From the NCBI GenBank assembly GCA_016716465.1, contig JADJWH010000007.1, forward strand, positions 143,427-207,426: 64,000 nucleotides of DNA. Reading direction: 5' to 3'. Positions 16,061 to 58,215 of the stretch are shown here, one piece after another. This stretch comes from Gammaproteobacteria bacterium. GTDB lineage: Bacteria > Pseudomonadota > Gammaproteobacteria > SZUA-140. Every line of letters begins with the position of its first letter. The first letter of the stretch is position 1. Both the position numbers and the translations under genes were made by a program. The notes under the pieces are model-generated. The model saw only the letters and a list, made by a program, of their open reading frames with translations, did no database searches and had not been told where the DNA came from.

Positions 16061-16870
16061 GTGAAGCCCAGTAATCTGCTCGGGATTCTCGGCCATGCCG
16101 CGCCGGATTTTTTCATCATCGGGGTCCAGAAAGGCGGCACCACTTCGCTCTACAATTATCTCGCCCGTCATCCAGCGGTGCTTCCGGCGGTGGAAAAGGA
16201 GATTCACTATTTCAGTGAAAATTTCTATAGAGGCGAAGCGTGGTACAGCAAGCGCTTTCCGACCCGATACCACAAGCTGCGCCGCATGCTGGAGTTGCAT
16301 ACGCGTATCCTGACCGGAGAGGCAACCCCGTATTACATCTTCCATCCCCATGCCGCCCGACGGATCAGGGCGCGTCATCCACGCGCCAGGATCATCCTCA
16401 TGCTGCGCAATCCCGTCGATCGCGCCTATTCGCACTATCGTTATCACGTCAAGCTGGGTGTCGAGTCGCTGAGTTTCGAGGAGGCGATAGCCGCGGAGCC
16501 ACAGCGGCTGGCCGGGGAAATGGAGCGGATGATGGCCGATGAGTACTACTCCAGCGAAGCGTGCAAACTGTTTTCTTACCTGAGGCGCGGGATCTATGTC
16601 GACCAGATCCGGCGCTGGCGCGAATATTTTCCTCGCGAGCAGATGCTGGTCCTGAAAAGCGAGGATTTTTTTGCCAACCCGGCGGAGTCTTATCTGCAGG
16701 TCACCCGGTTTCTGGGCCTGGAGCACCATGATCTTAGCGCTTATGACACGTTCAATGCGGGCGCTGAATCGGCCCTGCGGTCTGACACACGGCAGGGGCT
16801 CGTGGAATATTTCCGGGCGAGTAACGAGCAGCTCTACGACTATCTGGGAGTCGATTTCGGCTGGAATTGA
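16061..16870 (+). CDS. Sulfotransferase (Sulfotransfer_1, heparan-sulfate-sulfotransferase-like PAPS-binding motifs)
   Basis: 5'-PSB loop IIGVQKGGTTSL, very similar to the animal HS sulfotransferase motif IIGV(R/K)KGGTRAL. 3'-PB motif RNPVDRAYSHY. GTG start. Confidence 0.8.
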   Translation: MKPSNLLGILGHAAPDFFIIGVQKGGTTSLYNYLARHPAVLPAVEKEIHYFSENFYRGEAWYSKRFPTRYHKLRRMLELHTRILTGEATPYYIFHPHAARRIRARHPRARIILMLRNPVDRAYSHYRYHVKLGVESLSFEEAIAAEPQRLAGEMERMMADEYYSSEACKLFSYLRRGIYVDQIRRWREYFPREQMLVLKSEDFFANPAESYLQVTRFLGLEHHDLSAYDTFNAGAESALRSDTRQGLVEYFRASNEQLYDYLGVDFGWN

Positions 16871-16893
16871 TGCTATAAATTTGCTCCGTATGG

Positions 16894-19800
16894 TTGGTGC
16901 CATTGATTGGCGGATATAGCTCAGTAAGCATGAATTTTCTCCCGCTCGTCGCCCGAGGTTTCAGCCAGGCCGTCCTGCTGGCCGCCCTCACGCTGTTACC
17001 GTTGACGATCCCCCCCGCGGCGGCGGCCGCGAATGCGCGTGCCGATTTCAACGGCGACGGGCGCACTGACCTGGCGATCGGTGTTCCGGGCGAGGATGTC
17101 GGGAGCATCATCGATGCCGGCGCCGTACGGATCGTTTATGGAAGCGGCAGTGGGGCGCCGGCGGCGGGTACAGAACAGATCTGGCATCTGGACAGCGTCG
17201 GTATACCGGGTACGGCGCAGTCGGGCGATCATTTCGGTGCGGCCATCGCCAGCGGGGATTTCAACCGGGACGGTTATACCGACCTCGCGGTGGGTATGCC
17301 GAACAAGAACGGCAATCGAGGCCAGATGCTGGTCATGTACGGCAGCGGCGCGGGTCTCAGCGCGGCCGGCAGCCAGATCTGGGATCAGGGGGTGCTCGCC
17401 GATGACCCGGAAACAGACGACCGCTTTGCATCCGCGCTCGTGGCGGGGGACTTCAACCGGGACGGATACGACGACCTCGCCGTCGGGGTTCCCGGGGAGG
17501 ATTATCCCGGCATCGGGCCACCTGAAGCCAACCCGCCGACTCCCAATTGCGATCCCTGCGTCAATGCCGGTGTGGTCAATGTGGTTTACGGCGGCCCCAG
17601 CGGCCTGACGGCCACGCGGAACGAGCTTTGGCACCAGGATCGCGGCGTTTCCTACGACGGCTGGGTTGAGCCACAGGACTGCTTCGGTGCAAGCCTGGCT
17701 TCCGCGGATTTCAATGGCGACGGCATAGATGATCTTGCCGTTGGCGTGCCGTGCGAGAACACCGGCGGCGCGGACGTGCCATTTCCGAACAACGGCGCGG
17801 TGAGCGTGTACTACGGTTCGACCGGCGGTCTGACGGGTGTCGGAGCGCAATACCTGCGGCAGTGGGCGGAAGACGTCGTCGATTATCCCCAGGCCAATGA
17901 TGCCTTCGGTTATGCCCTCGCGGCGGGAGATTTCGATGGTGACGGCCGCGCCGATCTGGCGATAGGCGTGCCGGGCGAGGATAGCGGCGGTATCAGCGAT
18001 GCCGGTGGCGTGGCGGTCTTTTACGGGGCTGCCGGCGGCCTGATCAGAAACGAGCTGTGGGGGACACACAGTCCGGATGTCATCGGCGACCCGGTCGCCA
18101 ATGCGCACTGGGGTTATGCGCTCGCCGCGGGAGATTTCAACCATGACGGGCGAGCTGATCTTGCGATCGGGGCACCCGGTGATAGCGTTTCGGCCATTAT
18201 CGAGGCCGGGTCCGTAAGCATACTTTACGGTGCCCCCACCGGACTGAGCGGCCAGTCCAGCCAACTGTTCACCCAGGATACCCCCGGCGTAGACGAGGTT
18301 GCCGAGCAGGTTGACTGGTTTGGACATACGCTCGCCGCTACCGATCTCGACGGCGATGGCGCTCAGGACCTCGTCATAGGCGTGCCATTCGAAGACTACG
18401 GATTCACCGTGGATGCGGGGGCCGTTCATCTCCTCTATGGCTCGGCAGGTACGGGGATTTCAGCAACCGGGAGCCGATTACTCGGTCAGGATGGACCAGG
18501 CAGCCAGGACATCAGCGAGGCAGGGGATCAATTCGGTGGTCGTCTGGTTCCGCGCCTCAACGGCGCGGCGCCCTGGCCGGATGAACCGACGAACTACATG
18601 ATGACGGCGCCGACCGCGGTGAATCTCACCGCGGAGGGTTCGGCGGACTGGGTTCATTGGGGCCGCGCCAGCGTAACAGCGCCGGATCGAAAATCCGGTG
18701 TTGCCCCCCAGATTGGCAACCTGTTTCCTCTGGGCGGGGCGAGTCCCGCGATCACGAACCAGACGAGCTCTGCCTATGCCTGGAGCGACGGCGCGCCACT
18801 CGCGACCCATTCCGGCACCAAATCCGGCGTTCGGGTGTTCAGCGCCGGCAATGGCTTCCAGTTCAGTGTGCCTGCAGATACGGGCTTCCGGACCCTCAAG
18901 GTCTATGTGGGAGCGAATGCCGCAAGAGGCCAATTTACCGCCAGTCTGAGTGATGGCAGTGCTCCGGCGTACACCACCGCGGTCGATCGCCGCAGTGGAC
19001 GCACCAGTCAGGTCATCACACTCAACTACCGCGCGGCATCGCCCGGCCAGACCCTGACCGTCAGCTACGTTTTGAACACGCTCTACCAGGCCAATCTCCA
19101 AAGCTGGATAACCCTCGAGTCGGCGGCACTGCGTGTTGCCGGGGATGATCGCCCGCCGATGCTTGAGCCGATCGGAAATCGAACCTTGCAGGAAGGCGAA
19201 CTGCTGAGTCTGGCCGTGGTCGCAGTGGATTCCGATGGTCCGGCCCCGCTGAGCCTGAGCCAGACCAATACGCTGCCCGGCAGCCCGAACATCCTGACCG
19301 ACAATGGCAACGGCAGCGGCACGCTGAACTGGACGCCGGCCGCGGGCTCCGCGGCCGGCAGCCCCTATTCGGTCACCGTCACGGCCACCGACGGCGCCGG
19401 GACCTCCTCGAGCACCAGCTTCACCGTGACCGTTCTCCCGGTCAGCTCGCACACGCCTTACGGCGGGAGCGCGTGGCCGATCCCGGGGATCATCGAGGCG
19501 GAGAACTACGACCTGGGCGGCTCAGGCGTGGGCTATTTCGACACCACGGCGGGCAACGCCGGCAATCTCTACCGCAGCGACGGCGTCGACATCTGGGTCG
19601 CCTCCGACGTGGATGGCGCCTACATGGTGGGCCAGACCAGCGCCGGCGAGTGGCTGGACTACACAGTCAACGTGGCAGCCGCCGGCAGCTACACGCTCAA
19701 TCTGCGGGTGGCGACGGCGGTGAACAACAAACGGCTGCGTATCCTGATGAACGGCGCCGACATCACCGGCTCGATCGCGGTGCCCAATACCGGCGGCTGG

Positions 19801-20694
19801 ACCGCCTGGACCACCCTCAGCCGGACGGTGACGCTCAATGCCGGCCAGCAGACCCTGCGCCTGCAGGTCGACAGCGGCAGCTTCAACGTCAACTGGATCG
19901 GTTTCACCTCCGGTTTCTCCAATGCCGCGCCCACCCTGAGCCCAATCGGCAATCAGACGGTGAATGAAGGGCAATTACTTGTCGTGCCGGTCTCGGCCAC
20001 TGACGCCGACGGTCCAGCCCCGCTGAGCCTGAGCCAGACCAGTACGCTGCCCGGCAGCCCGAACATCCTGACCGACAATGGCAACGGCAGCGGCACGCTG
20101 AACTGGACGCCGGCCGCGGGCTCCGCGGCCGGCAGCCCCTATTCGGTCACCGTCACGGCCACCGACGGCGCCGGGACCTCCTCGAGCACCAGCTTCACCG
20201 TGACCGTTCTCCCGGTCAGCTCGCACACGCCTTACGGCGGGAGCGCGTGGCCGATCCCGGGGATCATCGAGGCGGAGAACTACGACCTGGGCGGCTCAGG
20301 CGTGGGCTATTTCGACACCACGGCGGGCAACGCCGGCAATCTCTACCGCAGCGACGGCGTCGACATCTGGGTCGCCTCCGACGTGGATGGCGCCTACATG
20401 GTGGGCCAGACCAGCGCCGGCGAGTGGCTGGACTACACAGTCAACGTGGCAGCCGCCGGCAGCTACACGCTCAATCTGCGGGTGGCGACGGCGGTGAACA
20501 ACAAACGGCTGCGTATCCTGATGAACGGCGCCGACATCACCGGCTCGATCGCGGTGCCCAATACCGGCGGCTGGACCGCCTGGACCACCCTCAGCCGGAC
20601 GGTGACGCTCAATGCCGGCCAGCAGACCCTGCGCCTGCAGGTCGACAGCGGCAGCTTCAACGTCAACTGGATCGGTTTTTCGGGCATTAACTAG
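16894..20694 (+). CDS. Secreted FG-GAP (integrin-alpha-like beta-propeller) protein with two cadherin-like Ig modules and two CBM6 carbohydrate-binding modules
   Basis: Signal peptide (the start could instead be ATG 16930, MNFLPLVARGF...). At least seven FG-GAP repeats (DFNGDGRTDLAIGVPGED-type). Ig modules (PIGNQT..EG..L...V.A.D.DGPAPL.LSQT). CBM6 modules (PYGGSAWPIPGIIEAENYDLGG...NTGGW..W.T....V.LNAGQQTLRLQVD.GSFNVNWIGF). Confidence 0.8.
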   Translation: MVPLIGGYSSVSMNFLPLVARGFSQAVLLAALTLLPLTIPPAAAAANARADFNGDGRTDLAIGVPGEDVGSIIDAGAVRIVYGSGSGAPAAGTEQIWHLDSVGIPGTAQSGDHFGAAIASGDFNRDGYTDLAVGMPNKNGNRGQMLVMYGSGAGLSAAGSQIWDQGVLADDPETDDRFASALVAGDFNRDGYDDLAVGVPGEDYPGIGPPEANPPTPNCDPCVNAGVVNVVYGGPSGLTATRNELWHQDRGVSYDGWVEPQDCFGASLASADFNGDGIDDLAVGVPCENTGGADVPFPNNGAVSVYYGSTGGLTGVGAQYLRQWAEDVVDYPQANDAFGYALAAGDFDGDGRADLAIGVPGEDSGGISDAGGVAVFYGAAGGLIRNELWGTHSPDVIGDPVANAHWGYALAAGDFNHDGRADLAIGAPGDSVSAIIEAGSVSILYGAPTGLSGQSSQLFTQDTPGVDEVAEQVDWFGHTLAATDLDGDGAQDLVIGVPFEDYGFTVDAGAVHLLYGSAGTGISATGSRLLGQDGPGSQDISEAGDQFGGRLVPRLNGAAPWPDEPTNYMMTAPTAVNLTAEGSADWVHWGRASVTAPDRKSGVAPQIGNLFPLGGASPAITNQTSSAYAWSDGAPLATHSGTKSGVRVFSAGNGFQFSVPADTGFRTLKVYVGANAARGQFTASLSDGSAPAYTTAVDRRSGRTSQVITLNYRAASPGQTLTVSYVLNTLYQANLQSWITLESAALRVAGDDRPPMLEPIGNRTLQEGELLSLAVVAVDSDGPAPLSLSQTNTLPGSPNILTDNGNGSGTLNWTPAAGSAAGSPYSVTVTATDGAGTSSSTSFTVTVLPVSSHTPYGGSAWPIPGIIEAENYDLGGSGVGYFDTTAGNAGNLYRSDGVDIWVASDVDGAYMVGQTSAGEWLDYTVNVAAAGSYTLNLRVATAVNNKRLRILMNGADITGSIAVPNTGGWTAWTTLSRTVTLNAGQQTLRLQVDSGSFNVNWIGFTSGFSNAAPTLSPIGNQTVNEGQLLVVPVSATDADGPAPLSLSQTSTLPGSPNILTDNGNGSGTLNWTPAAGSAAGSPYSVTVTATDGAGTSSSTSFTVTVLPVSSHTPYGGSAWPIPGIIEAENYDLGGSGVGYFDTTAGNAGNLYRSDGVDIWVASDVDGAYMVGQTSAGEWLDYTVNVAAAGSYTLNLRVATAVNNKRLRILMNGADITGSIAVPNTGGWTAWTTLSRTVTLNAGQQTLRLQVDSGSFNVNWIGFSGIN
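19237..20678 (+). repeat. Direct tandem duplication with a 774-bp period inside the FG-GAP/CBM6 gene; 636 bp are perfectly identical (19269-19904 equals 20043-20678)
   Basis: Aligned by eye at offset 774. Two mismatches in the first 32 bp, then no differences to the end of the CBM6 module. Each unit encodes a partial Ig module plus a full CBM6. Confidence 0.9.
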
Positions 20695-20847
20695 CTCAAC
20701 TGGATTCAAATCCCCGGAATTTTGCCCGATACTCTCTGCATAGACACAGCCTCAAGAGCGCGTCAATTCCGTGGACAGCACCGGGTTTGGGTCGCGATAG
20801 CTTCGTTGGGGCAGGATCATTTTCGATAATTTAGCGGGACAATCGTG

Positions 20848-21789
20848 ATGTCGACCAATGAGCAGCGGCTGATCTTTCTGGGCGGGGCCCCCCGGTCGGG
20901 AACAACCTTGTTACAGAACATCCTCGATATGCATCCGGATATCCTGGGTGGTCCGGAGTTTCTGCATTTGCCGGATATCCTGCAACTTCGCGGCAAGCTG
21001 CGCGACTCCGTTGCCCGCGGATGGATCGATCTGATCTGCTCAGCGGAGGAGGTCGATGAACGCATGCGTAATCTCATTGGCGGATTTCTGTTGACCTTCG
21101 CCGACAGGCACGGCGCCAAATTGCTCAGCGAGAAGACACCCGAGAATGTCCTGGTCTTTCCCAAATTGGTGGAGTTGTTTCCGGGTTCGAAGTTCATTCA
21201 CATCGTGCGCGATCCACGCGCAACCGTGGCTTCTTTGCTGGAAGTTGGGAAAAAGGCCCGGCGTAAAGGTGAAACCCCGGCGTTGTTCACACGTGACGCA
21301 CAGTCCGCGATCAGGCATGTGCGACGCTGCCTGGATTCCGGCTTTTCGGCCTCCCGTACCGCGCCGGACAAGGTGTATACGCTGGTTTATGAACGATTGA
21401 TCCGGGACCCGGAGGCCGAGGGACGCCAGATCTGCGGTTTCCTCGGTGTGTCATGGGCGCCGGAGATGTTACGGCCCGGCGAGAAGCGCCACATGGGTGA
21501 GAGCGCCATTACCGTCAACTCAAAAGAGATCTGGTATGACGCCAAAACGTACAACTCCAATCCTCAACCGGACAGCCTGGAGAAATGGCGCGAAACGCTG
21601 GCGGCGCACGAAAAGCTGATGATTGCGCGCGCGTTCTCCGATTCAGAGGATTTGAGCCGGCTGGGGTACGATTTCACGCTCAGCGATATGGGGACGATGG
21701 ATCGCGCGCGCGGCGCCGTGGTAACGTGGCTGCGGGGGCTCCGTCGCCGGCTCGGCGGCGGGCTGCGCCGGCTTGCCGGAGATAAATGA
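20848..21789 (+). CDS. Sulfotransferase family protein (Sulfotransfer_3-like)
   Basis: 5'-PSB P-loop LGGAPRSGTTLL near the N-terminus. IVRDPRATVAS 3'-PB-like motif. Confidence 0.8.
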   Translation: MSTNEQRLIFLGGAPRSGTTLLQNILDMHPDILGGPEFLHLPDILQLRGKLRDSVARGWIDLICSAEEVDERMRNLIGGFLLTFADRHGAKLLSEKTPENVLVFPKLVELFPGSKFIHIVRDPRATVASLLEVGKKARRKGETPALFTRDAQSAIRHVRRCLDSGFSASRTAPDKVYTLVYERLIRDPEAEGRQICGFLGVSWAPEMLRPGEKRHMGESAITVNSKEIWYDAKTYNSNPQPDSLEKWRETLAAHEKLMIARAFSDSEDLSRLGYDFTLSDMGTMDRARGAVVTWLRGLRRRLGGGLRRLAGDK

Positions 21790-21797
21790 GCGATGTT

Positions 21798-22205: not shown

Positions 22206-22242
22206 GGCTCGTGTGCTCTATGGGTTGAATATCGTCCGGATC

Positions 22243-38154: not shown

Positions 38155-38179
38155 ATTCGCGTGGTTCGCGCGCGAACTC

Positions 38180-41153: not shown

Positions 41154-41180
41154 GATCGGAACCTACGGCGAAGATAGCGC

Positions 41181-42293: not shown

Positions 42294-42299
42294 GGGGCC

Positions 42300-49363: not shown

Positions 49364-49501
49364 ATATTATGGTGATGCCAAAAAGTCTACTGATTCGACT
49401 CTGCCGGTCCGATATCAAGCCCATTACTGGGAATAATCAGAGCACTTAGGGCAAGCACTTTCTAATCGGTCTAGGAAAATGATCGTGGCGGAGTTATTGA
49501 A

Positions 49502-52016: not shown

Positions 52017-52023
52017 GCGCGTC

Positions 52024-53139
52024 ATGAAAAAATATGCGTTCATCAAGATCAGGTCGAACCATGCCATTATTGACCAGATCATTAAAATCTTGGCGCATAC
52101 ATTTCCTGACTATCAATTGGATGTTATCGATATAAAAGACATTTTAAGGAATAAAATATTTTATGTATTTATTAATTTATTTCACGTTATAAAAATCTAT
52201 GGTTTCTCGACAATATTTGAAAGTAAGAGCGTTATTTATAACCGATTCTTTGGTACTCCCTATATGTATCATGTGATCAGTCGCCTGCTGGATTCTCATA
52301 TAGCGAAGGGTTATGCATTTACTATTCAAGATTGCTCGTTGTTCAACGGGAAGCAGCGTGATATCCCAAATTTCGTATATACAGATCATACGGTTCTAGC
52401 CAATAAAAACTACCCTTCCTATGATGAAAAAAGAGATTTGCTGGCGGAATCGTGGATAAACCTTGAGCGTAATATCTACAGCGAAGCAAGTATGGTGTTT
52501 ACGCGTTCTGAGGCGATCCGTAATTCGGTGATAAATGATTATTCTTGCGACCCTAGTAATGTTGAATGCGTTTATTTTGCGCCATTCATTACAACTAGGA
52601 GCGGGGTTGTAAATGCTGAAAAATACAAGAGAAAGAAGATATTATTTGTCGGCATTGAGTGGGAGAGGAAGGGTGGGCCTCAGTTGGTTGAGGCGTTCAA
52701 GCAGGTGCTGGAGGTCATTCCTGATGCCAGCCTAGTTGTCGTTGGTTGTGCTCCCACCATTTTGTTACCTAACGTGGAAGTGATTGGTCTTGTCGATAAA
52801 GAATACTTACCGCTCTATTATGAAAATGCCTCGGTATTTTGTTTGCCTACCCAACGCGAGCCATTCGGAATAGTCTTTATCGAAGCTATGAGCTACTCAT
52901 TGCCAGTTATAGGAACCAATATCGGTGCTCTTCCAGAGTTCATCCATGATGGCATCAATGGATATAAGGTCAATACTGGCGATGTAGACAGGTTGTCAGC
53001 TCTGCTCATAGAGCTGTTATCTGACCCGATCAAATGCGAACAATTAGGGAAAATGGGCTATGGTATCTACCATGAGAAATTTACGTTGGAAGGAGTTTCA
53101 TCTCTGCTCAACCACCATATAAGTCGGTTTATTGTATGA
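52024..53139 (+). CDS. Glycosyltransferase family 1 (GT4-type)
   Basis: FCLPTQREPFGIVFIEAMSYSLPVIGTNIGALPEFI motif. Confidence 0.8.
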   Translation: MKKYAFIKIRSNHAIIDQIIKILAHTFPDYQLDVIDIKDILRNKIFYVFINLFHVIKIYGFSTIFESKSVIYNRFFGTPYMYHVISRLLDSHIAKGYAFTIQDCSLFNGKQRDIPNFVYTDHTVLANKNYPSYDEKRDLLAESWINLERNIYSEASMVFTRSEAIRNSVINDYSCDPSNVECVYFAPFITTRSGVVNAEKYKRKKILFVGIEWERKGGPQLVEAFKQVLEVIPDASLVVVGCAPTILLPNVEVIGLVDKEYLPLYYENASVFCLPTQREPFGIVFIEAMSYSLPVIGTNIGALPEFIHDGINGYKVNTGDVDRLSALLIELLSDPIKCEQLGKMGYGIYHEKFTLEGVSSLLNHHISRFIV

Positions 53140-53218
53140 TTTCTAAGTGTTTAAATAAGTAAATGTGCGTGTCTCTATTATAATGGCTGAACTTTGAAAT
53201 AAGAATATTTCTAATCCA

Positions 53219-54442
53219 TTGTCGAATCTACTATCAATCAATAATTATTATTACTTCCGCGGCGGTGCGGAAGCGGTATTTCTGAGGCAAAATGCCTTGT
53301 TTGAAAGTATGGGTTGGCGCGTGGCGCCATTCTCTATGCGCCATTCGAATAATATTGATTCTCCTTGGTCGGACTACTTTGTCGAGGAAATTGAGTTCGG
53401 ATCAGAATATTCCCTATGGGGGAAAATTCGGCGTGTTCCGAAGGTGGTTTATTCTCTTGAGGCGCGGAGAAGGGTGCGCAGGCTGCTTGATGTATTTCCT
53501 GCTGATATATGCCATGCCCATAATATTTATCACCATATCTCTCCATCGATATTGCATCTGATCAAGCAGCGTGGCATTCCGATCGTCATGACACTTCATG
53601 ACCTGAAGCTCGCCTGCCCTGCATATAACATGCTTGCCAATGACGGTATTTGCGAGCGCTGTAAGGATGGCCGGATATATAACGTCCTACGTCACAGTTG
53701 CATAAAAGGTTCAGTGACTCTGAGCGCGGTAGTCATGGCCGAAACCCTACTCCACCGAGCATTGAAAACATTCGAGCGGCACATAGACAGGTTTATTGTT
53801 CCCAGTCATTTTTATATGGCTAAGCTGGCTGAATGGGGTTGGGATAAGTCACGGTTTTTGTACATTCCCAACGCACTCGATGTGGAGACATTCAGCGTTG
53901 ATTATGTTCCAGGAAAATCATTTGTATATTTTGGAAGGCTAAGTCGGGAAAAGGGTATTTCGACCTTAATCAAGGCCGCCTCTATTGCTGGCGTGTCTTT
54001 GACGATTGTAGGGACTGGCCCTGACGAACACCTACTACGGAAACTCTCTAAAGATGAAGGGGCAGATGTTACGTTTCTGGGCTACCTGAAGGGGCAGAAG
54101 TTGCATGATGTTGTCCGTTCTGCCCGTGCGGTTGTGCTACCCTCGGAGTGGTATGAGAATGCGCCATTGTCTGTTATGGAAGCCTATGCATTAGGCAAGC
54201 CAGTTATTGGTGCCACGATAGGTGGCATCCCAGAATTGATACAGAATGGGATAACAGGCGCCACGTTTGAATCGGGTTCTATCAGAGAACTAGCGGAAAT
54301 ATTGGCCCGATTTTCCTGTCTTCCGGACTCGGATATGTCCAACATGGGGCATGCTGGACGTTCTTGGATAGAAAGGGAATTCAACATGGACCAGTATGGA
54401 TCTAGGATGCTGAGTTTGTATCGGGAGCTTGGAGTTCAATGA
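53219..54442 (+). CDS. Glycosyltransferase family 1 (GT4-type)
   Basis: N-terminal INNYYYFRGGAE. C-terminal LPSEWYENAPLSVMEAYALGKPVIGATIGGIPE. TTG start as in the ORF track. Confidence 0.75.
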   Translation: MSNLLSINNYYYFRGGAEAVFLRQNALFESMGWRVAPFSMRHSNNIDSPWSDYFVEEIEFGSEYSLWGKIRRVPKVVYSLEARRRVRRLLDVFPADICHAHNIYHHISPSILHLIKQRGIPIVMTLHDLKLACPAYNMLANDGICERCKDGRIYNVLRHSCIKGSVTLSAVVMAETLLHRALKTFERHIDRFIVPSHFYMAKLAEWGWDKSRFLYIPNALDVETFSVDYVPGKSFVYFGRLSREKGISTLIKAASIAGVSLTIVGTGPDEHLLRKLSKDEGADVTFLGYLKGQKLHDVVRSARAVVLPSEWYENAPLSVMEAYALGKPVIGATIGGIPELIQNGITGATFESGSIRELAEILARFSCLPDSDMSNMGHAGRSWIEREFNMDQYGSRMLSLYRELGVQ

Positions 54443-54494
54443 ATATAGTTCTAATAGCAGAAGCTCGCAACGGTGAAAAGGGTTTCAGTAATTG

Positions 54495-55616
54495 ATGCGC
54501 ATAATGGTGCTAGGCCTTCGTGGGTTCCCTAATGTCCAGGGAGGCGTGGAGCAACATGCTGAGCAATTGTATCCTTTGCTAGCTAAGTTGGGTTGCCACA
54601 TCGATGTAATTGCACGTTCACCCTATGTGCCGCGCGAGCTTCGGATGTGGAATGGCATTACTTTTCACCGATTATGGGCGCCAAGGATCAGGGGGCTGGA
54701 AGCGCTGATACATTCCTTGATCGGGGTATTCTATGCCGGCATCAAGAGGCCTGATATCTTGCACATTCATGCTGTTGGCCCTGCGATCATTGCGCCACTC
54801 GGTAGAGCGCTAGGACTTAGGGTTGTGGTCACGCATCATGGTCCGGATTATGATCGCGAAAAATGGGGAAGGTCAGCGCGTTGGTTACTTCGGCTAGGTG
54901 AGAAGTGGGGTATGCTCTGTGCGAATCAGAGGATTGTCATCTCCAAAGTGATTAGAAAGCTGGTGTTCGATAAATATCGTCTCGATTCAGTTGTTATCCC
55001 AAATGGTGTCACTCTCCCAAAAATTCCTGAGACCAAGGAAACGCTGGGGCGATTTTCGCTGGTTGCTAAGAGATATATTTTGTTGGTTAGCCGCTTTGTG
55101 CCAGAAAAGAGGCATCTCGACTTAATTGAAGCCTTTGCCATGTCCAGACTTTTGGATTGGAAGCTGGTGTTGGTTGGAGAGGTGGATCGCCGCGACAGGT
55201 ATTGCATGAAGGTGCTATCTTCCGCCGAGCAGATCCCGGGTGTGGTAATCACAGACTTTCAATTTGGCCAAGCACTACAGGAGTTATATTCGTATGCTGG
55301 TCTCTTTGTATTGCCATCATCGCATGAAGGGCTTCCGATTGCTTTGCTTGAGGCATTAAGCTACGGATTACCCGTGCTGGCAAGTGATATACCCGCCAAT
55401 CTGGAAGTCGGCCTTCCGGAAACTAATTACTTTCCCCTTGGGAATGTCGCCATACTCGCCGGGGTATTGTGCGAGCGGGCTGTTGAGCAGTCAGATGGCG
55501 CACAGCGGGAGAGGTTACGTGCATGGGTTAGTGAGCGTTATTGCTGGACAGAGGTGGCGCAACGTACATTGGATACTTATAAAAAAGTATTAAGAAGGTC
55601 TAAGATATATTGGTAG
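54495..55616 (+). CDS. Glycosyltransferase family 1 with N-terminal DUF1972-type domain
   Basis: MRIMVLGLRGFPNVQGGVEQHAEQL N-terminal signature. PSSHEGLPIALLEALSYGLPVLASD C-terminal motif. Confidence 0.8.
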   Translation: MRIMVLGLRGFPNVQGGVEQHAEQLYPLLAKLGCHIDVIARSPYVPRELRMWNGITFHRLWAPRIRGLEALIHSLIGVFYAGIKRPDILHIHAVGPAIIAPLGRALGLRVVVTHHGPDYDREKWGRSARWLLRLGEKWGMLCANQRIVISKVIRKLVFDKYRLDSVVIPNGVTLPKIPETKETLGRFSLVAKRYILLVSRFVPEKRHLDLIEAFAMSRLLDWKLVLVGEVDRRDRYCMKVLSSAEQIPGVVITDFQFGQALQELYSYAGLFVLPSSHEGLPIALLEALSYGLPVLASDIPANLEVGLPETNYFPLGNVAILAGVLCERAVEQSDGAQRERLRAWVSERYCWTEVAQRTLDTYKKVLRRSKIYW

Positions 55617-55717: not shown

Positions 55718-57232
55718 ATGGGCCTTGTTTATCGATTTCAGAATAATAAAAAATTTTTTATAGAAAAAGGGCAGTCAGAAAAAAACCATATAAAAGTATT
55801 TTTAGGAAATAAACTATCTTCTGAGCATGATCCAACCGCAGATGGAATATGGGCGGAATGGGAGTGGGATGGGATTGAATTTAGATTTTCCAATGATAGG
55901 CTTGGATTTTACCCGATCTATTATTACAGTTATGAAGGAAAGTTTGGTATCTCCACGTCTATAATTGATCTTGTTGAGAAAGGGGACGTCCCTCTGGATC
56001 TCGACGATCAAGCAGTGGCATTCTTTATAAGAATGGGATTTTTTCTCGCTGATGACACCCCATTTAAATACATTCATAGTGCGCCACCAGCCTGTAGTAT
56101 TAAATGGAAAGATGGGAGAGTGGAGGTATTTACAAAAGGGTGTATATCATCACAGATAGCAGTCGGGTTATCTAGAGGGGCGGCGATCAAAGAGTATGGA
56201 GAGAGATTTCAGAATGCTATTAATAATACAACTCCTGATAAGAACGAAAAGGTTGGTGTCCCGTTAAGTGGTGGAAGGGACTCGAGGCATATTGCCTTGG
56301 CATTATATGAGGGTGGGGTAAATATACATTCGTTTTTGACTGTTAATAAGGGCCAGGATTTGACAGTCTCTCGCCAAGTAGCGCGTGAGTTGGGAATAGC
56401 TCAGTCAGTTATATATCAAAAGGGGTCTAGATTCGGGCAAGAAATTCGTAAGAATTATCTTACCAGTTTTTGTGCTGATGAGCATGCATGGGCTTTAGGC
56501 TTGGCCAATTCTATTGAAGAAAATCGATACACGGTTATTTATGATGGGATTGGTGGTGATGTTTTATCTGCGAGCGCGTTCCTCAATGAAAGGAGATTAG
56601 ATTTATATAGAAAGGAAAAGTTAGAGCAACTGGCAGAGCATCTAATGATAGACGAAGGTTATATACGATATTCTCTGCCAGAGGATTTTTATCAACGATT
56701 TAGCCGTGAACGAGCGGTCAATAAATTAACGGAGGAGTTAAGGAAGCATGTAAACACGCCAAATCCTGTTTCGCAATTCTTTTTTTGGAATAGAACGAGG
56801 AGAGAAATAGCATTATTGCCATGGGGTCTCTATAGGCGGGATATCAAAATTATGGCTCCTTATTTAATGAAAGGTATCTATGACTTTCTAACAGGATTGC
56901 CTGCCGAGTATATGCTCAACCGTCAATTCCATGAGCAAGCTATAAATAATCAATATGCTAAACACAGTCATATCCCTTATGAGGATAAGTCGGTATCTAC
57001 ACAAAGATTGTGTAAGCAATTTATTAAGACATTCAGAGAGGCGAGATTAATTAAAAACTATATTAATTATATTTCTATCTCTGGCGTCAAGAAATTTGAT
57101 ATCGGACTCGGGGCGCATTTCATAAAGCTGATTGGCATGTACTCAATGGCCCGCTCAAATGATCAATTCTTAAATTCCTTGAGAAGGATCATTTGGTTGG
57201 TACAGCTGTTGAGCCTACAGAAAATAAAGTAG
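55718..57232 (+). CDS. Asparagine-synthase-related amidotransferase (AsnB C-terminal synthetase domain; N-terminal domain lacks the Cys2 nucleophile)
   Basis: PP-loop VGVPLSGGRDSRHIA. N-terminus MGLVYRF... instead of MCGI. Similar to WbpS-like O-antigen sugar amidotransferases. Confidence 0.65.
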   Translation: MGLVYRFQNNKKFFIEKGQSEKNHIKVFLGNKLSSEHDPTADGIWAEWEWDGIEFRFSNDRLGFYPIYYYSYEGKFGISTSIIDLVEKGDVPLDLDDQAVAFFIRMGFFLADDTPFKYIHSAPPACSIKWKDGRVEVFTKGCISSQIAVGLSRGAAIKEYGERFQNAINNTTPDKNEKVGVPLSGGRDSRHIALALYEGGVNIHSFLTVNKGQDLTVSRQVARELGIAQSVIYQKGSRFGQEIRKNYLTSFCADEHAWALGLANSIEENRYTVIYDGIGGDVLSASAFLNERRLDLYRKEKLEQLAEHLMIDEGYIRYSLPEDFYQRFSRERAVNKLTEELRKHVNTPNPVSQFFFWNRTRREIALLPWGLYRRDIKIMAPYLMKGIYDFLTGLPAEYMLNRQFHEQAINNQYAKHSHIPYEDKSVSTQRLCKQFIKTFREARLIKNYINYISISGVKKFDIGLGAHFIKLIGMYSMARSNDQFLNSLRRIIWLVQLLSLQKIK

Positions 57233-57243
57233 CTTGACGATTT

Positions 57244-58215
57244 CTATTTGTGAGGCGGCTGGATTTGGCTGCTGCGAGCATAACGCAAATAGCCGAGGCT
57301 TCGCGCGAAAGAATTCTTCAGCCAGCGCGCCTGAACCTCGGGTGCCCGCATTTTTATATTTGGCCCTTCATCAGAGATGAGGTCGTTTCGCACATCGTGG
57401 AGTGTGAGCATTTTCATGATGCCCTGCAAATAGCCTGACTTTTTAATACGAAGAGCTACCAGTTCCTCCAATTGCGGATCATTGATCTGCTTATAGTAAA
57501 TAGTACGTAATTCTTGTGTGACAGCAGTCCGGTTGTTATTGGTTCTTTCTTCAAAATTGGCAGCAGAACTCTGATCTTGAAGGTGTACTCGCGCCGACTC
57601 GTTTCCAAACAGAAGATGGTGTTTCTTGTGCCAGAACTTCTCTTTTCCCTCGAAATAAGGTATGCCTAAGTAGCAACAAATATTCTCAAGCACTGCTGGG
57701 TCTCGTGTATAGTCGGAGTAGGGTACGGAGCGCCAGTCAGCTATCTTGGTTGTATATAGACGAAAATAGTTTATCCACGAACTCTCCCATTTGTCGTAAC
57801 CTTTGCCCCGCTTTTTTAATGAATGCGCGTATTCTAGAGGGGTTTTCCATATAACAATATGCTTGGTTTCAATGCCGGACTTTCTAAGAAGCTTCGACTG
57901 ATAGTTAATCCAAAAGGGATCCTTGCTGGAATCAATGATAAACCTTACCTCAGGTTTAAGTTCGAAGATCTTGTTATAGAGATTCTGCTTCCCCGCGGCG
58001 CGCACTTGTGACCAGAAGTTACAATTTATTTCTCCGCATCCACATATTGGATCTATATGGTGTGCGCGATAGGGGTGAATCAGTGCATTGACTTCCCCGG
58101 TTGAGAACCCAGCAGGATCATTTCCCAGCGTCATGTCAAAAAAGGTAGAACCACTAAATGCGGTTCCCCCAACAAAGATCAGTTTTCTTTCTGTCATTTG
58201 AGTTATTACCATCAA
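57244..58215 (-). CDS. P-loop sulfotransferase-like protein
   Basis: N-terminal LIFVGGTAFSGSTFF loop and overall size resemble Stf0/Sulfotransfer_3 proteins. Weaker motif match than the other five. Confidence 0.5.
   Translation of the reverse strand: MMVITQMTERKLIFVGGTAFSGSTFFDMTLGNDPAGFSTGEVNALIHPYRAHHIDPICGCGEINCNFWSQVRAAGKQNLYNKIFELKPEVRFIIDSSKDPFWINYQSKLLRKSGIETKHIVIWKTPLEYAHSLKKRGKGYDKWESSWINYFRLYTTKIADWRSVPYSDYTRDPAVLENICCYLGIPYFEGKEKFWHKKHHLLFGNESARVHLQDQSSAANFEERTNNNRTAVTQELRTIYYKQINDPQLEELVALRIKKSGYLQGIMKMLTLHDVRNDLISDEGPNIKMRAPEVQARWLKNSFARSLGYLRYARSSQIQPPHK

What the first reader, a model, noticed from the sequence alone, without database searches (positions are those of the whole stretch)
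16061..58215. Six sulfotransferase genes interleaved with glycosyltransferases: genetic basis for a heavily sulfated bacterial exopolysaccharide
Six separate ORFs carry PAPS-binding 5'-PSB P-loops: 16061-16870, 20848-21789, 34955-35899 (-), 39015-39845, 46804-47751 and 57244-58215 (-). Several also have 3'-PB motifs. The one at 16061 has IIGVQKGGTTSL and RNPVDRAYSHY, which closely resemble the motifs of animal heparan-sulfate sulfotransferases. They are distributed among about ten glycosyltransferases, a Wzy-like protein and export machinery. Sulfated EPS or O-polysaccharides are rare outside cyanobacteria, rhizobial Nod factors and mycobacterial sulfolipids. Sulfated glycosaminoglycan-like polymers have been detected chemically in wastewater granules, but without a defined gene cluster. 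This locus looks like a complete build, sulfate, export and edit system.
Basis: partly seen in the sequence, partly recalled or inferred. Interest (0 to 1): 0.85.

Follow-up and report, generated by a model that had tools for sequence, protein, structure and literature searches.

The report
Sulfated-polysaccharide gene locus in uncultured Gammaproteobacterium
This stretch of an uncultured gammaproteobacterial genome carries five clear sulfotransferase genes and one atypical one among sugar-assembly and export genes, next to a giant secreted sugar sulfatase, so it very probably makes sulfate-decorated surface or slime polysaccharide; that is a plausible but unproven genetic source for the sulfated polymers found chemically in microbial aggregates.

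Summary

They sit among nine glycosyltransferases, a WcaJ-type priming enzyme, a polymerase/ligase-fold membrane protein, Wzm/Wzt, and OPX/PCP/tyrosine-kinase export genes. A 2376-aa secreted sulfatase lies beside them; it has an intact CSPTR site and is closest to carrageenan and GalNAc sulfatases.

The core (ST1, ST2, ST3, sulfatase, GT2, three GT4s) is syntenic in two related MAG species. ST4 is absent from one relative. ST5 and ST6 lie in a 14-kb low-GC island. The locus is therefore a mosaic, probably making more than one glycan, and not one "complete" system. The window holds no Wzx, PAPS-synthesis or sulfatase-maturation genes.

Sulfated-polysaccharide clusters with sulfotransferases are already described in Synechocystis (xss), Vibrio, Cobetia and Pontiella. 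I rate this a new variant of a known kind, notable for the number and diversity of sulfotransferases and the conserved sulfatase/CBM partner set. No chemistry was or could be tested.

The parts
15..866 (+). WcaJ-type undecaprenyl-phosphate glucose phosphotransferase (priming enzyme), cut off by the window edge
   Evidence: Bac_transf 224 bits. TIGR03023 460 bits against a cut-off of 411, matching profile positions 175-453. The frame is open to base 3.
1157..6678 (+). Export module: OPX (Poly_export/SLBB), outer-membrane beta-barrel, PCP (Wzz/GNVR), separate tyrosine autokinase, and an XrtA/PEP-CTERM-associated-type ATPase
   Evidence: Pfam. NCBIfam TIGR03027, 03016, 03007, 03018 and 03015 are all the best hits but all fall below their cut-offs.
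6778..11616 (+). Nucleotide-sugar genes: NTP transferase, FAD oxidoreductase, epimerase/dehydratase, NDP-hexose C-methyltransferase, RmlC-like 3,5-epimerase
   Evidence: Pfam. Syntenic at 79-95% amino-acid identity in L005 and L006.
11613..13871 (+). Wzm/Wzt-type ABC-2 glycan exporter (permease and ATPase with a C-terminal extension)
   Evidence: ABC2_membrane and ABC_tran. Weak Wzt_C match at 0.02.
13872..15967 (+). DUF4910/DUF2172/HTH_47 protein and a short-chain dehydrogenase, directly upstream of ST1
   Evidence: Pfam. Syntenic in L005 and L006.
16061..16870 (+). ST1: heparan-sulfate-3-OST/NDST-like sulfotransferase (PF00685)
   Evidence: Orthologues at 80% and 75% in the same position in two related MAGs.
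16894..20694 (+). Secreted FG-GAP propeller + 2x CBM6/35 + Ig-like protein (variable: absent between ST1 and ST2 in SJ243)
   Evidence: Pfam, signal-like N-terminus, synteny.
20845..21789 (+). ST2: Sulfotransfer_3 (TPST/NoeE-like) sulfotransferase
   Evidence: 116 bits. TPST1/2 at 4e-19 and CurM ST at 1e-10. NoeE at 1e-10. 82-90% orthologues in L005 and L006.
21786..22253 (+). 155-aa ORF of unknown function between ST2 and the sulfatase; weakly conserved
   Evidence: No Pfam hit. 45% identical ORF at the same place in L006.
22243..29373 (-). 2376-aa secreted multidomain protein: type I sulfatase + CBM6/35 modules + Ig-like repeats + GDSL esterase
   Evidence: Pfam Sulfatase 202 bits, SGSH_C, CBM_6 x3, Lipase_GDSL_2. 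CSPTRAALMTGR at C343. Best PDB matches are S1_19 carrageenan sulfatases at 2.5e-66, followed by GalNAc-6- and GalNAc-4-sulfatases. 80-84% orthologue in SJ243.
29567..33801 (-). Two paralogous FG-GAP/UnbV_ASPIC (CRTAC1-like) proteins with signal-like N-termini
   Evidence: Pfam. 76-83% orthologues in SJ243.
33927..34916 (+). GT2 glycosyltransferase
   Evidence: Glycos_transf_2 90.9 bits. 81% orthologue in SJ243. 57% homologue next to an ST5 homologue in L079.
34955..35899 (-). ST3: Sulfotransfer_3 sulfotransferase (weakly Stf1-like)
   Evidence: 47.5 bits. Weak N-terminal match to PDB 2zq5 at 1.5e-3, an entry listed as M. tuberculosis Stf1 sulfotransferase. 88% orthologue in SJ243.
36052..38917 (.). 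Third FG-GAP/UnbV_ASPIC protein (+) and a hexapeptide-repeat acyltransferase (-)
   Evidence: Pfam. 75% and 88% orthologues in SJ243.
39015..39845 (+). ST4: Sulfotransfer_1 (cytosolic-SULT-like) sulfotransferase heading the GT4a-c operon; accessory
   Evidence: 44.6 bits. Motifs HKTGSS and RDPRDRIVS. No counterpart in SJ243, where only 268 bp separate Hexapep and GT4a.
39957..43493 (+). Three GT4 glycosyltransferases (GT4a-c)
   Evidence: Pfam. 77-82% orthologues in SJ243.
43598..46324 (-). Secreted 908-aa protein made of about five CBM6/35 modules plus a CHB_HEX_C domain; no catalytic domain found
   Evidence: Pfam. A 903-aa protein with the same Pfam domains (Fn3_assoc, CHB_HEX_C_1, CBM_6/35) sits at the matching position in SJ243.
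46804..47751 (+). ST5: Sulfotransfer_3 sulfotransferase, first gene of the low-GC island operon
   Evidence: 53.9 bits. TPST at 2e-4. 84% and 53% homologues in L078 and L079, the latter next to GT2 and Hexapep homologues.
48245..55616 (+). Low-GC cassette: GT4d, GT4e, Wzy/WaaL-fold 10-TM protein (50664-52016), GT4f, GT4g, GT4h
55718..57232 (+). Asparagine-synthase-like amidotransferase (no glutaminase domain detected)
   Evidence: Asn_synthase 26.3 bits. Weak TIGR01536 and TIGR03108 matches.
57244..58215 (-). ST6: sulfotransferase-fold protein of an unannotated family whose 5'-PSB loop has Phe/Tyr in place of Lys/Arg
   Evidence: Homologues lie beside canonical sulfotransferases and GT4s in L069 and L071.
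58873..62890 (-). Two secreted proteins: a 489-aa protein of unknown function, and an 842-aa lipoprotein-like protein with 2x CBM6/35 + fn3 and an unassigned 460-aa N-terminal region
   Evidence: No Pfam or NCBIfam hit for the 489-aa protein. CBM_6 x2. N-termini.

Best explanation
The window is a mosaic cell-surface or extracellular polysaccharide super-locus from an uncultured gammaproteobacterium. It most likely produces one or more O-sulfated glycans.

**Proposed mechanism**
1. A WcaJ-type enzyme primes undecaprenyl phosphate with Glc-1-P. *(Family assignment shown; activity inferred.)*
2. GT2 and GT4 enzymes extend the lipid-linked oligosaccharide on the cytoplasmic face. *(Inferred.)*
3. 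Five soluble, cytoplasmic PAPS-dependent sulfotransferases from five unrelated lineages, possibly joined by the atypical ST6, add sulfate esters at different positions at this stage. The cytoplasm is the only place PAPS is available. *(Sulfotransferase family membership and the lack of TM or signal segments are shown; substrate and timing are inferred.)*
4. Units are polymerised by the Wzy/WaaL-fold protein and exported through PCP/BY-kinase/OPX. In parallel, a second polymer containing a C-methyl-branched deoxysugar is exported by Wzm/Wzt, with ST1 as the last gene of that operon. *(Fold and families shown; the partition into two routes is inferred.)*
5. Outside the cell, a conserved set of secreted CBM6/35-rich proteins binds the polymer. 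The set includes a 2376-aa sulfatase/GDSL-esterase. It trims sulfate and acyl groups. *(Domains, active-site motif and synteny shown; action on the cell's own polymer inferred.)*

A conserved core (ST1, ST2, ST3, sulfatase, ASPIC proteins, GT2, GT4a-c) is shared with related species. ST4 and the low-GC island (ST5, five GT4s, Wzy-like, AsnB-like, ST6) are horizontally acquired decorations.
For: - Sulfotransferase identity; ST6 by fold.
- No TM or signal segment in any sulfotransferase.
- Sulfotransferase genes are co-directional with and adjacent to GT and sugar genes: SDR then ST1; ST4 then GT4a-c; ST5 then GT4d-h.
- Priming, export and polymerase parts.
- The sulfatase has a canonical CSPTR site and is closest to carbohydrate sulfatases.
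- Synteny of ST1-ST2-sulfatase-ASPIC-GT2-ST3-...-GT4a-c at 75-96% identity in two other species-level MAGs.
- ST1 homologues in other phyla lie beside a fused ATP-sulfurylase/APS-kinase, further sulfotransferases and GT4s (L047). PAPS genes occur near ST1 homologues in 5 of 64 loci.
- ST1's family is richest in filamentous cyanobacteria, the group known for sulfated EPS (PMC8205485).
- ST6 homologues are embedded among canonical sulfotransferases and GT4s (L071, L069).
- An ST5 homologue lies next to homologues of the core GT2 and Hexapep (L079).
- Mosaic structure.
- Precedent: the xss cluster with 2 sulfotransferases, 8 GTs and Wzx/Wzy/PCP makes synechan (PMC8205485).
Against: - No sulfate chemistry, expression or enzymology exists for this organism.
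- No PAPS-synthesis or cysQ genes are in the window. Authors of the Vibrio and Cobetia clusters call such genes a hallmark (PMC11641403).
- No Wzx is present, so the Wzy route is incomplete within the window.
- ST6 lacks the catalytic Lys/Arg and may be inactive or do something else.
- ST2, ST5 and ST6 are closest in sequence or fold to protein-tyrosine sulfotransferases.
- The sulfatase and CBM proteins could instead forage on foreign sulfated glycans.
- The Wzy/WaaL fold cannot separate a polymerase from a ligase.
- An assembly chimera at the low-GC island was not excluded by an independent contig spanning a junction (one search failed).
Confidence: 0.68

Rival explanations
1. All six sulfotransferases act on one repeat unit of a single, heavily sulfated, glycosaminoglycan-like exopolysaccharide. 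The locus is a self-contained build-sulfate-export-edit system.
For: All six genes lie within 42 kb among GTs and export genes. ST1 is related to heparan-sulfate 3-OST and NDST. The sulfatase carries an SGSH_C domain and resembles GalNAc sulfatases. Roughly ten GTs and six sulfotransferases could fit one large repeat, as 8 GTs and 2 sulfotransferases do for synechan (PMC8205485).
Against: - There are two export routes (Wzm/Wzt and Wzy-type).
- ST4 is absent in SJ243.
- ST5 and ST6 sit in a foreign-GC island whose GT4-Wzy cassette exists elsewhere without sulfotransferases.
- No Wzx, PAPS or FGE genes are present.
- No UDP-sugar dehydrogenase, hexosamine-pathway or GAG-synthase genes were found.
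- ST1 lacks the counterparts of 3-OST-3 Asp189 and Lys215.
Confidence: 0.2
2. The sulfated product is a cell-bound glycan (LPS O-antigen, capsule or glycolipid) and not a released EPS. ST1 in particular modifies, and perhaps caps, the ABC-transporter-exported chain.
For: ST1 is the terminal gene of a conserved operon with Wzm/Wzt and deoxysugar genes. The Wzy-like protein's best structural match is the O-antigen ligase WaaL. The published gammaproteobacterial precedents are sulfated capsules and possibly O-antigen exported by ABC transporters (PMC11641403, PMC11766843).
Against: OPX/PCP/BY-kinase and the XrtA-associated-type ATPase and porin are typical of EPS loci. The many secreted CBM proteins suggest an extracellular matrix polymer. 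No lipid A/core or KpsS/C-type genes are in the window.
Confidence: 0.3
3. Some of the TPST-like enzymes (ST2, ST5, ST6) sulfate tyrosines of secreted proteins or peptides, for example the FG-GAP/CBM proteins encoded alongside. This would resemble RaxST-type bacterial tyrosine sulfation and would not involve sugars.
For: ST2 matches TPST1/2 at about 4e-19 over roughly 200 residues. ST5 matches TPST at 2e-4. The ST6 model's top Foldseek hits are TPSTs. Eight secreted proteins are encoded nearby.
Against: Sulfotransfer_3 is a broad family. ST2 also matches the carbohydrate sulfotransferase NoeE and the CurM ST. All three are predicted to be cytoplasmic, while the candidate protein substrates carry signal peptides. 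ST5 and ST6 homologues sit among GT4 genes. No peptide-export ABC/MFP genes like raxA/raxB are present (the comparison with rax rests on my own knowledge).
Confidence: 0.08
4. The sulfatase, CBM6/35 and FG-GAP proteins form a catabolic, PUL-like system for foreign sulfated polysaccharides that merely neighbours a biosynthetic locus. Under this reading the 'edit' idea is wrong.
For: The sulfatase's nearest characterised relatives are catabolic carrageenan and GalNAc sulfatases. CBM-rich secreted enzymes are typical of degraders.
Against: No glycoside hydrolase, polysaccharide lyase, TonB-dependent receptor or sugar-uptake gene was detected in the window. These genes are interleaved with, not adjacent to, the sulfotransferase and GT genes, and that interleaving is conserved across three species.
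Confidence: 0.12

Closest known systems
Synechocystis sp. PCC 6803 xss cluster (synechan; Maeda et al. 2021, PMC8205485)
   Same: It is a polysaccharide cluster in which sulfotransferases from distinct subfamilies (PF00685/PF13469) are interleaved with about eight GTs, a Wzy-type polymerase and a PCP. Sulfation is presumed to occur on the cytoplasmic lipid-linked unit. The OPX or other parts may lie elsewhere in the genome.
   Different: xss has 2 sulfotransferases; this locus has 5 plus 1 atypical. xss has a Wzx; none is in this window. xss carries its own regulators (XssQRS); none were seen here. xss has no sulfatase, CBM or FG-GAP partner set and no ABC-transporter arm. xss is genetically and chemically proven; this locus is prediction only. 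The host is a gammaproteobacterium, not a cyanobacterium.
Sulfated capsule clusters of Vibrio sp. KMM 8419 and Cobetia marina KMM 1449 (PMC11641403, PMC11766843)
   Same: Both hosts are Gammaproteobacteria. Sulfotransferases (three in Vibrio, at least one in Cobetia) lie in large glycan regions with an ABC transporter, deoxysugar (Rha) genes and GTs. HGT and mosaicism are noted, and strain-to-strain presence or absence of a sulfotransferase is reported.
   Different: Those clusters include dedicated cysD/N/C (and cysQ) PAPS genes and Kps-type capsule export. This window has neither and uses OPX/PCP/BY-kinase with XrtA-type accessory genes. No sulfatase is reported in those clusters. Their polymer structures are solved by NMR; nothing is known here.
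Putative sulfated-GAG cluster of Pontiella sulfatireligans F21 (PMC7356697) and sulfated GAG-like polymers of granular sludge (PMC10483923)
   Same: These are non-cyanobacterial environmental bacteria with a PF13469 sulfotransferase among GT2/GT4 genes. They raise the same open question of who makes sulfated polymers in aggregates and with which genes.
   Different: Pontiella has one sulfotransferase in its cluster, plus chemical (dye-based) evidence of sulfated polymer. This locus has six sulfotransferases and no chemistry. The sludge studies have chemistry but found few sulfotransferase genes by BLASTp.
Animal heparan-sulfate sulfation and editing (3-OST/NDST sulfotransferases, extracellular Sulf endosulfatases)
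   Same: ST1 shares the KGGT 5'-PSB, E-x-H catalytic motif, RxPxxRxxS 3'-PB and C-terminal DFGW with 3-OST-3A1. The locus pairs intracellular sulfation with an extracellular carbohydrate sulfatase. (The Sulf analogy rests on my own knowledge.)
   Different: ST1's closest structure is a bacterial sulfotransferase (3rnl, 1e-29), not an animal one. The 3-OST-3 Asp189 and Lys215 positions are Ser and Ala. There is no GAG synthase, C5-epimerase or UDP-GlcA supply in the window. The sulfatase is S1_19/carrageenan-like, not Sulf-like.

Membership tests
PAPS-dependent sulfotransferases (Pfam PF00685 / PF13469) | Profile score above the curated gathering cut-off | tested here: met
   ST1 71.8/22, ST2 116.3/27, ST3 47.5/27, ST4 44.6/22, ST5 53.9/27. 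ST6 is NOT met: 17.6/27.
PAPS-dependent sulfotransferases (Pfam PF00685 / PF13469) | 5'-PSB loop with a conserved Lys/Arg (PKxGTT / PRSGTT) | tested here: met
   ST1 QKGGTT, ST2 PRSGTT, ST3 PRSGTT, ST4 HKTGSS, ST5 PRSGTV. ST6 is NOT met: AFSGST. Across its family the position is Y 129, F 44, R 18, H 5 of 199.
PAPS-dependent sulfotransferases (Pfam PF00685 / PF13469) | 3'-PB motif (R/K-x-P/G-x5-S) | tested here: met
   RNPVDRAYS, RDPRATVAS, RHPAAFVAS, RDPRDRIVS, RDGRDLVAS, and KTPLEYAHS in ST6. The K-x-P-x5-S-x2-[KR]R form occurs in 197 of the 225 ST6-family members examined.
PAPS-dependent sulfotransferases (Pfam PF00685 / PF13469) | Sulfotransferase fold, as distinct from nucleotide kinases (tested for ST6) | tested here: met
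   [not shown]
PAPS-dependent sulfotransferases (Pfam PF00685 / PF13469) | PAPS binding and sulfuryl transfer to an acceptor | not testable with these tools
   This needs recombinant enzyme assays.
Heparan-sulfate 3-O-sulfotransferase / NDST clade (for ST1) | Significant sequence similarity and the catalytic Glu-x-His | tested here: met
   3-OST-3A1 7.8e-21, 3-OST-5 7e-19, NDST1 1.3e-14. E-I-H-Y-F aligns with E-P-H-F-F.
Heparan-sulfate 3-O-sulfotransferase / NDST clade (for ST1) | Acceptor-binding residues of 3-OST-3 (Asp189, Lys215; residue numbers from my own knowledge) | tested here: not met
   The aligned residues in ST1 are Ser and Ala, as in the bacterial 3rnl protein.
Wzx/Wzy-dependent polysaccharide pathway | Priming phosphoglycosyltransferase | tested here: met
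   TIGR03023 WcaJ 460 bits, above the 411 cut-off.
Wzx/Wzy-dependent polysaccharide pathway | Wzy polymerase | tested here: inconclusive
   [not shown]
Wzx/Wzy-dependent polysaccharide pathway | Wzx flippase | tested here: not met
   A scan of all ORFs of 150 aa or more for 4 or more TM segments found only Wzm and the Wzy-like protein. A Wzx may lie outside the window.
Wzx/Wzy-dependent polysaccharide pathway | PCP, BY-kinase and OPX export proteins | tested here: met
   Wzz and GNVR; TIGR01007 114 bits against a cut-off of 108; Poly_export and SLBB.
ABC-transporter-dependent glycan pathway | Wzm-type ABC-2 permease plus Wzt-type ATPase in an operon with sugar genes | tested here: met
   ABC2_membrane 51 bits, ABC_tran 83.5 bits. 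The operon is conserved in L005 and L006. The Wzt_C glycan-binding domain match is weak (0.02).
XrtA/PEP-CTERM-associated EPS locus | TIGR03015/03007/03018/03027/03016 family members above cut-off, with an exosortase and PEP-CTERM proteins | tested here: inconclusive
   All five models are the top hits but fall below their cut-offs: 296/324, 255/279, 158/231, 143/180, 41/91. No exosortase gene was found, and no PEP-CTERM tail was seen on the secreted proteins in the window.
Type I (formylglycine) sulfatases, SulfAtlas S1 | Sulfatase domain with the C/S-x-P-x-R signature and metal-binding DDxG | tested here: met
   PF00884 202 bits. CSPTRAALMTGR and LTDDQGYGD. Best PDB hit 6bia, labelled only 'Sulfatase', at 2.5e-66; named carrageenan S1 sulfatases (6prm, 6b0k) follow at about 1e-64, and 9hh3 is labelled family S1-19.
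Type I (formylglycine) sulfatases, SulfAtlas S1 | A maturation enzyme (FGE or anSME) available | not tested
   None was detected among the window proteins scanned.
Sulfated-polysaccharide BGC as defined in PMC11641403 (sulfotransferase genes plus PAPS-synthesis genes in one cluster) | cysD/cysN/cysC (and cysQ) inside the cluster | tested here: not met
   No ATP-sulfurylase or APS-kinase hit in the window, by Pfam or by tblastn with the L047 PAPS synthase. The genome-wide supply is untestable here.

The most novel reading that the evidence does not exclude
A lineage of uncultured Gammaproteobacteria runs a bacterial 'sulfation code'. Several unrelated cytoplasmic sulfotransferases write position-specific sulfates on matrix polysaccharide. 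One of them belongs to a large, unannotated family that has replaced the catalytic P-loop Lys/Arg with Tyr/Phe. A conserved, CBM-tethered giant extracellular sulfatase/esterase then rewrites the pattern after export. This would be functionally analogous to heparan-sulfate sulfotransferases plus Sulf endosulfatases in animals, and it would be the genetic source of sulfated 'GAG-like' polymers reported in microbial aggregates.
Probability: 0.2. Interest if true: 0.8.

Novelty: new variant of a known kind. Interest (0 to 1): 0.55.

Why it matters
Sulfated polysaccharides are valuable biomaterials. Their bacterial biosynthesis is genetically proven essentially only for synechan in a cyanobacterium (PMC8205485). 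Sludge and granule researchers detect sulfated, GAG-like polymers chemically but state that the responsible bacterial pathways and sulfotransferases are not known (PMC10483923).

This locus offers a concrete set of genes that could be cloned: five diverse carbohydrate-type sulfotransferases, one atypical one, their GTs, and a matched secreted sulfatase. It comes from a non-cyanobacterial environmental bacterium, and its core is conserved across species. That makes the question testable by heterologous expression, enzyme assays and metatranscriptomics.

The work also flags two unannotated protein families. One is an ST6-type sulfotransferase fold lacking the canonical Lys/Arg, with 342 cluster representatives at E≤1e-30. 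The other is a Pfam-less Wzy/WaaL-fold family. Both recur in glycan loci.

Tried and rejected
1. Rejected for ST1-ST5 by Pfam. Rejected for ST6 by fold ranking, with sulfotransferases above all kinases.
2. hhalign of the ST6 family against ST2 gave only a local match at 11% probability. Uninformative.
3. Phmmer of ST6 alone against PDB found nothing.
4. Walking out of the window to look for PAPS, Wzx or exosortase genes failed. Exact-sequence look-ups for window 1157-1783, window 58873-60342, P0001 and ST5 (46804 start) were not on record.
5. The source genome is not among the GTDB representatives; the best hit is 80%.
6. Narrowing the taxonomy through the conserved ATPase failed. Near hits are all 'Gammaproteobacteria bacterium', and the only named isolate is Sulfurifustis variabilis at 68%.
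7. I could not confirm the sampled environment. Searches for the assembly and run accessions found no paper. My recollection that IPM-type locus tags belong to the Danish activated-sludge MAG set (PRJNA629478) is unverified.
8. The promoter and terminator scan of the island was at chance level. No tRNA genes flank the island.
9. No PEP-CTERM tails were seen on the secreted proteins.
10. I searched for catalytic domains in CBM6x4, the CBM6_842 N-terminus, the 489-aa protein and the sulfatase inter-domain regions. Nothing was found beyond one more CBM6.
11. ST6-family context is not uniformly glycan-related: L003 shows a stand-alone gene.

Full report
**1. Observation**

The six ORFs exist as described. 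In Pfam, ST1 (16061-16870) scores 71.8 bits on Sulfotransfer_1. ST2 (20845-21789) scores 116.3 on Sulfotransfer_3. ST3 (34955-35899, minus strand) scores 47.5, ST4 (38841/39015-39845) scores 44.6 on Sulfotransfer_1, and ST5 (46738/46804-47751) scores 53.9. All five are above the gathering cut-offs.

The translated sequences carry the PAPS motifs. ST1 has IIGVQKGGTTSL and RNPVDRAYSHY, exactly as quoted. ST2 and ST3 have GAPRSGTT, with RDPRATVAS and RHPAAFVAS respectively. ST4 has HKTGSS and RDPRDRIVS. ST5 has PRSGTV and RDGRDLVAS.

ST6 (57244-58215, minus strand) is different. It scores only 17.6 bits (cut-off 27), its loop is GGTAFSGST with no Lys or Arg, and alone it has no significant PDB match.

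None of the six has a TM or signal-like segment. They share no significant similarity with one another; the best pair scores 31 bits. They are six independent lineages, not paralogues.

**2. What ST6 is**

Eighty homologues were found, nearly all labelled 'hypothetical'. The family conserves GGTxYSGST, GE, DSSKDP and IWKTPxExAxSxxKR. Its profile hits the CurM sulfotransferase at 8.3e-6. Of 28 members, 23 touch Sulfotransfer_3.

An exhaustive profile search finds 342 cluster representatives at E≤1e-30 and 1,048 at E≤1e-10. The residue in the Lys/Arg position is Tyr in 129 members, Phe in 44, Arg in 18 and His in 5, out of 199. The family therefore grades into canonical enzymes.

Homologues lie beside canonical sulfotransferases and GT4s in L071 and L069, and beside a CysQ-like gene in L004. 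One homologue is stand-alone (L003). ST6 is a sulfotransferase-fold protein. Whether it is active is open.

**3. Affinities of the others**

- ST1's best structural relative is a bacterial sulfotransferase (3rnl, 1.2e-29), followed by heparan-sulfate 3-OST-3A1 (7.8e-21), 3-OST-5, 3-OST-1 and NDST1. The alignment keeps KGGT, E-x-H-x-F, RxPVxRAxS and DFGW. The positions of 3-OST-3 Asp189 and Lys215 are Ser and Ala. The animal-like motifs are real, but a glycosaminoglycan substrate is not implied.
- ST2 resembles TPST1/2 (4e-19) and CurM ST, and weakly NoeE, a Nod-factor carbohydrate sulfotransferase.
- ST3 weakly matches PDB entry 2zq5, listed as mycobacterial Stf1.
- ST4 weakly matches cytosolic SULTs.
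- ST5 weakly matches TPST.

**4. Surroundings**

From the left edge the window encodes:
- A WcaJ-type priming transferase, cut by the window edge (TIGR03023, 460 bits above the 411 cut-off; frame open to the edge).
- OPX, a beta-barrel porin, PCP, a tyrosine autokinase and an ATPase. Their best NCBIfam hits are the XrtA/PEP-CTERM EPS models, all below cut-off.
- A nucleotide-sugar set with an NDP-hexose C-methyltransferase and an RmlC-like epimerase.
- Wzm/Wzt, a DUF4910 protein, an SDR, and then ST1.
- A secreted FG-GAP/CBM6 protein, ST2, and a 155-aa ORF.
- A 2376-aa secreted protein on the minus strand, carrying a sulfatase domain, CBM6/35 modules, Ig repeats and a GDSL esterase.
- Two FG-GAP/UnbV_ASPIC proteins, GT2, ST3, a third ASPIC protein and a hexapeptide acyltransferase.
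- ST4 and three GT4s.
- A protein made of about five CBM6 modules.
- ST5, two GT4s, a 10-TM protein, three GT4s and an AsnB-like protein.
- ST6, a secreted 489-aa protein of unknown function, and another CBM6 protein.

No Wzx-like multi-TM ORF is present. No PAPS-synthesis gene is present.

**5. The sulfatase**

It has a signal-like N-terminus, the canonical CSPTRAALMTGR signature and DDQGYGD. Its catalytic domain is most similar to carbohydrate sulfatases: S1_19 iota/kappa-carrageenan sulfatases (2.5e-66 to 1e-63), S1_16, and GalNAc-6- and GalNAc-4-sulfatases. It is a credible polysaccharide sulfatase.

**6. Conservation and mosaicism**

The window belongs to an NCBI MAG labelled 'Gammaproteobacteria bacterium' (MBK9132722.1 to MBK9132746.1, contig 226,430 bp). 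There ST1 and ST3 are already named sulfotransferases, while ST6 and the Wzy-like protein are 'hypothetical'.

Two other species-level MAGs share the core:
- SJ336 (L005) has ATPase, sugar genes, Wzm/Wzt, DUF4910, SDR, ST1, FG-GAP and ST2 at 76-96% identity.
- SJ243 (L006 and L072) has CMeT through ST1, ST2, h155, sulfatase, two ASPICs, GT2, ST3 (88%), ASPIC, Hexapep, GT4a-c, an AsnB-like gene and a CBM6 protein.

ST4 has no counterpart in SJ243. The FG-GAP/CBM gene between ST1 and ST2 is also absent there.

GC content drops from 0.60-0.64 to 0.36-0.51 between about 46.4 and 60.4 kb. This island holds ST5, five GT4s, the Wzy-like protein, the AsnB-like protein, ST6 and the 489-aa protein. The GT4-GT4-Wzy-like-GT4-GT4(+AsnB) cassette occurs in another genome without sulfotransferases (L076), and a related one occurs with them (L071).

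An independent short-read contig is 100% identical over 48-57 kb (L075) but does not span a junction. An ST5 homologue (53%) lies next to homologues of the core GT2 (57%) and Hexapep (61%) in L079. This ties ST5-type genes to this kind of core.

**7. Wider comparative support**

ST1 homologues (34-58% identity) are concentrated in filamentous cyanobacteria. They also occur in Bacillus/Priestia and Bacillota, Chloroflexota, Acidobacteriota, Planctomycetota and Gemmatimonadota.

Around them, 12 of 64 loci hold at least one more sulfotransferase-like gene, and several hold three or four (L044, L047, L056, L063, L068). In L047 the ST1 homologue sits in this order: transporter, fused ATP-sulfurylase/APS-kinase, GT4, ST, ST, ST, GT4, AsnB. 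PAPS genes flank ST1 homologues in 5 loci. Multi-sulfotransferase glycan loci are therefore recurrent but essentially uncharacterised.

**8. Mechanism**

The most likely mechanism has these steps:
- Lipid-linked assembly primed by the WcaJ-type enzyme and extended by GT2 and GT4s.
- Cytoplasmic O-sulfation by the soluble sulfotransferases using PAPS.
- Polymerisation by the Wzy/WaaL-fold protein and export via PCP/BY-kinase/OPX.
- A parallel Wzm/Wzt-exported polymer containing a C-methyl deoxysugar, to which ST1 is genetically tied.
- Extracellular binding and trimming by the CBM6/35 protein set, including the sulfatase/GDSL esterase.

What is shown: family and fold memberships, motifs, predicted localisation, gene order and synteny. 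What is inferred: substrates, timing, the number of polymers, and that the sulfatase acts on the cell's own product. My confidence is about 0.68 that at least one sulfated glycan is made.

**9. Comparison with known systems**

Closest is the xss/synechan cluster, with 2 sulfotransferases, 8 GTs and Wzx/Wzy/PCP. Its authors wrote that sulfotransferase genes had not been found in other bacterial EPS clusters and that cyanobacterial sulfotransferase genes mostly lie in Wzx/Wzy- or ABC-type clusters (PMC8205485).

Since then, sulfated capsule clusters in Gammaproteobacteria have been described. The Vibrio sp. KMM 8419 cluster has three sulfotransferases plus cysDNC, and sulfotransferase presence varies between strains (PMC11641403). 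The Cobetia marina cluster has a sulfotransferase plus cysNC/D/Q (PMC11766843). A putative cluster is reported in Pontiella (PMC7356697). A Shark Bay MAG survey recorded sulfotransferase genes in several gammaproteobacterial orders (PMC9723792).

Granular-sludge work finds sulfated GAG-like polymers chemically but few sulfotransferase genes, and calls the pathways unknown (PMC10483923).

This locus differs in four ways:
- The number and diversity of sulfotransferases.
- The conserved secreted sulfatase/CBM/FG-GAP partner set.
- The OPX/PCP/XrtA-type export genes.
- The lack of in-cluster PAPS genes.

**10. Verdict**

The finding is real, well supported as a sulfotransferase-rich glycan locus, and partly over-interpreted. 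I rate it a new variant of a known kind, with interest 0.55. The sampled environment and finer taxonomy could not be verified.

Noticed in passing
window 57244-58215 (-), and P0001-P0080, P0272-P0416: ST6 belongs to an unannotated family: 342 representatives at E≤1e-30 and 1,048 at E≤1e-10. It has a sulfotransferase fold, but the P-loop Lys/Arg is replaced by Tyr (129) or Phe (44); only 18 of 199 members keep Arg. GE, DSSKDP and K-x-P-x5-S-x2-[KR]R are conserved.
   Followed up: yes
[not shown]
   Followed up: yes
window 16894-20694, 22243-29373, 43598-46324, 60362-62890: At least 11 CBM6/CBM35 modules are spread over four secreted proteins. The modules are 47-78% identical between proteins (tblastn cross-hits). 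This suggests a common ligand, possibly the locus's own polymer. No catalytic domain was found in the 908-aa protein.
   Followed up: partly
window 29567-33801 (-), 36052-38154 (+): Three paralogous FG-GAP/UnbV_ASPIC (CRTAC1-like) proteins are interleaved with the sulfotransferase and GT genes and conserved in SJ243. Their role in a polysaccharide locus is unexplained.
   Followed up: no
window 6778-15967 (+): A conserved operon for a C-methyl-branched deoxysugar (NDP-hexose C-methyltransferase, RmlC-like epimerase, FAD oxidoreductase, SDR), with Wzm/Wzt and a DUF4910/DUF2172/HTH_47 protein, ends in ST1. The Wzt has a 200-aa C-terminal extension with only a weak Wzt_C match (0.02).
   Followed up: partly
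window ~46400-60400: A 14-kb low-GC island (0.36-0.51 against 0.60-0.64) has no flanking tRNA gene and none of the scanned ORFs there hit an integrase or transposase family. The GC content rises gradually through 58.5-61 kb and not abruptly.
   Followed up: partly
window 38917-39957; L072 6686-7050: ST4 occupies a site between the hexapeptide acyltransferase and GT4a that is only a 268-bp spacer in the related MAG SJ243. This is a gain or loss of a single sulfotransferase gene between species.
   Followed up: yes
L047 3792-18387: An Acidobacteriota MAG locus runs: CitMHS-type transporter, fused ATP-sulfurylase/APS-kinase, GT4 fusion, ST1 homologue, two more sulfotransferases, GT4, AsnB. It is a compact 'PAPS supply plus sulfation plus GT' module. 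PAPS genes are also near ST1 homologues in L046, L053, L017 and L020.
   Followed up: partly
L071 1-20927: A metagenomic locus holds an ST6 homologue, two more PF00685/PF13469 sulfotransferases, a Sulfotransfer_2, a Wzy-like homologue (29%), four GT4s, a heparinase II/III-like protein, UDP-glucose dehydrogenase, MBOAT and GDSL. It looks like a uronic-acid-containing sulfated and acylated glycan locus.
   Followed up: no
window 58873-60342 (-) and 61511-62890 (-): A secreted 489-aa protein and the 460-aa N-terminal region of the CBM6/fn3 lipoprotein have no detectable family. They are candidates for a novel depolymerase, or something else entirely.
   Followed up: partly
window 55718-57232 (+): The AsnB-like protein matches only the synthetase part of asparagine synthase (26 bits), with no glutaminase domain detected. 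AsnB-like genes recur in related cassettes (L072, L076, L047), which hints at amidation of a uronic acid or a similar modification.
   Followed up: no
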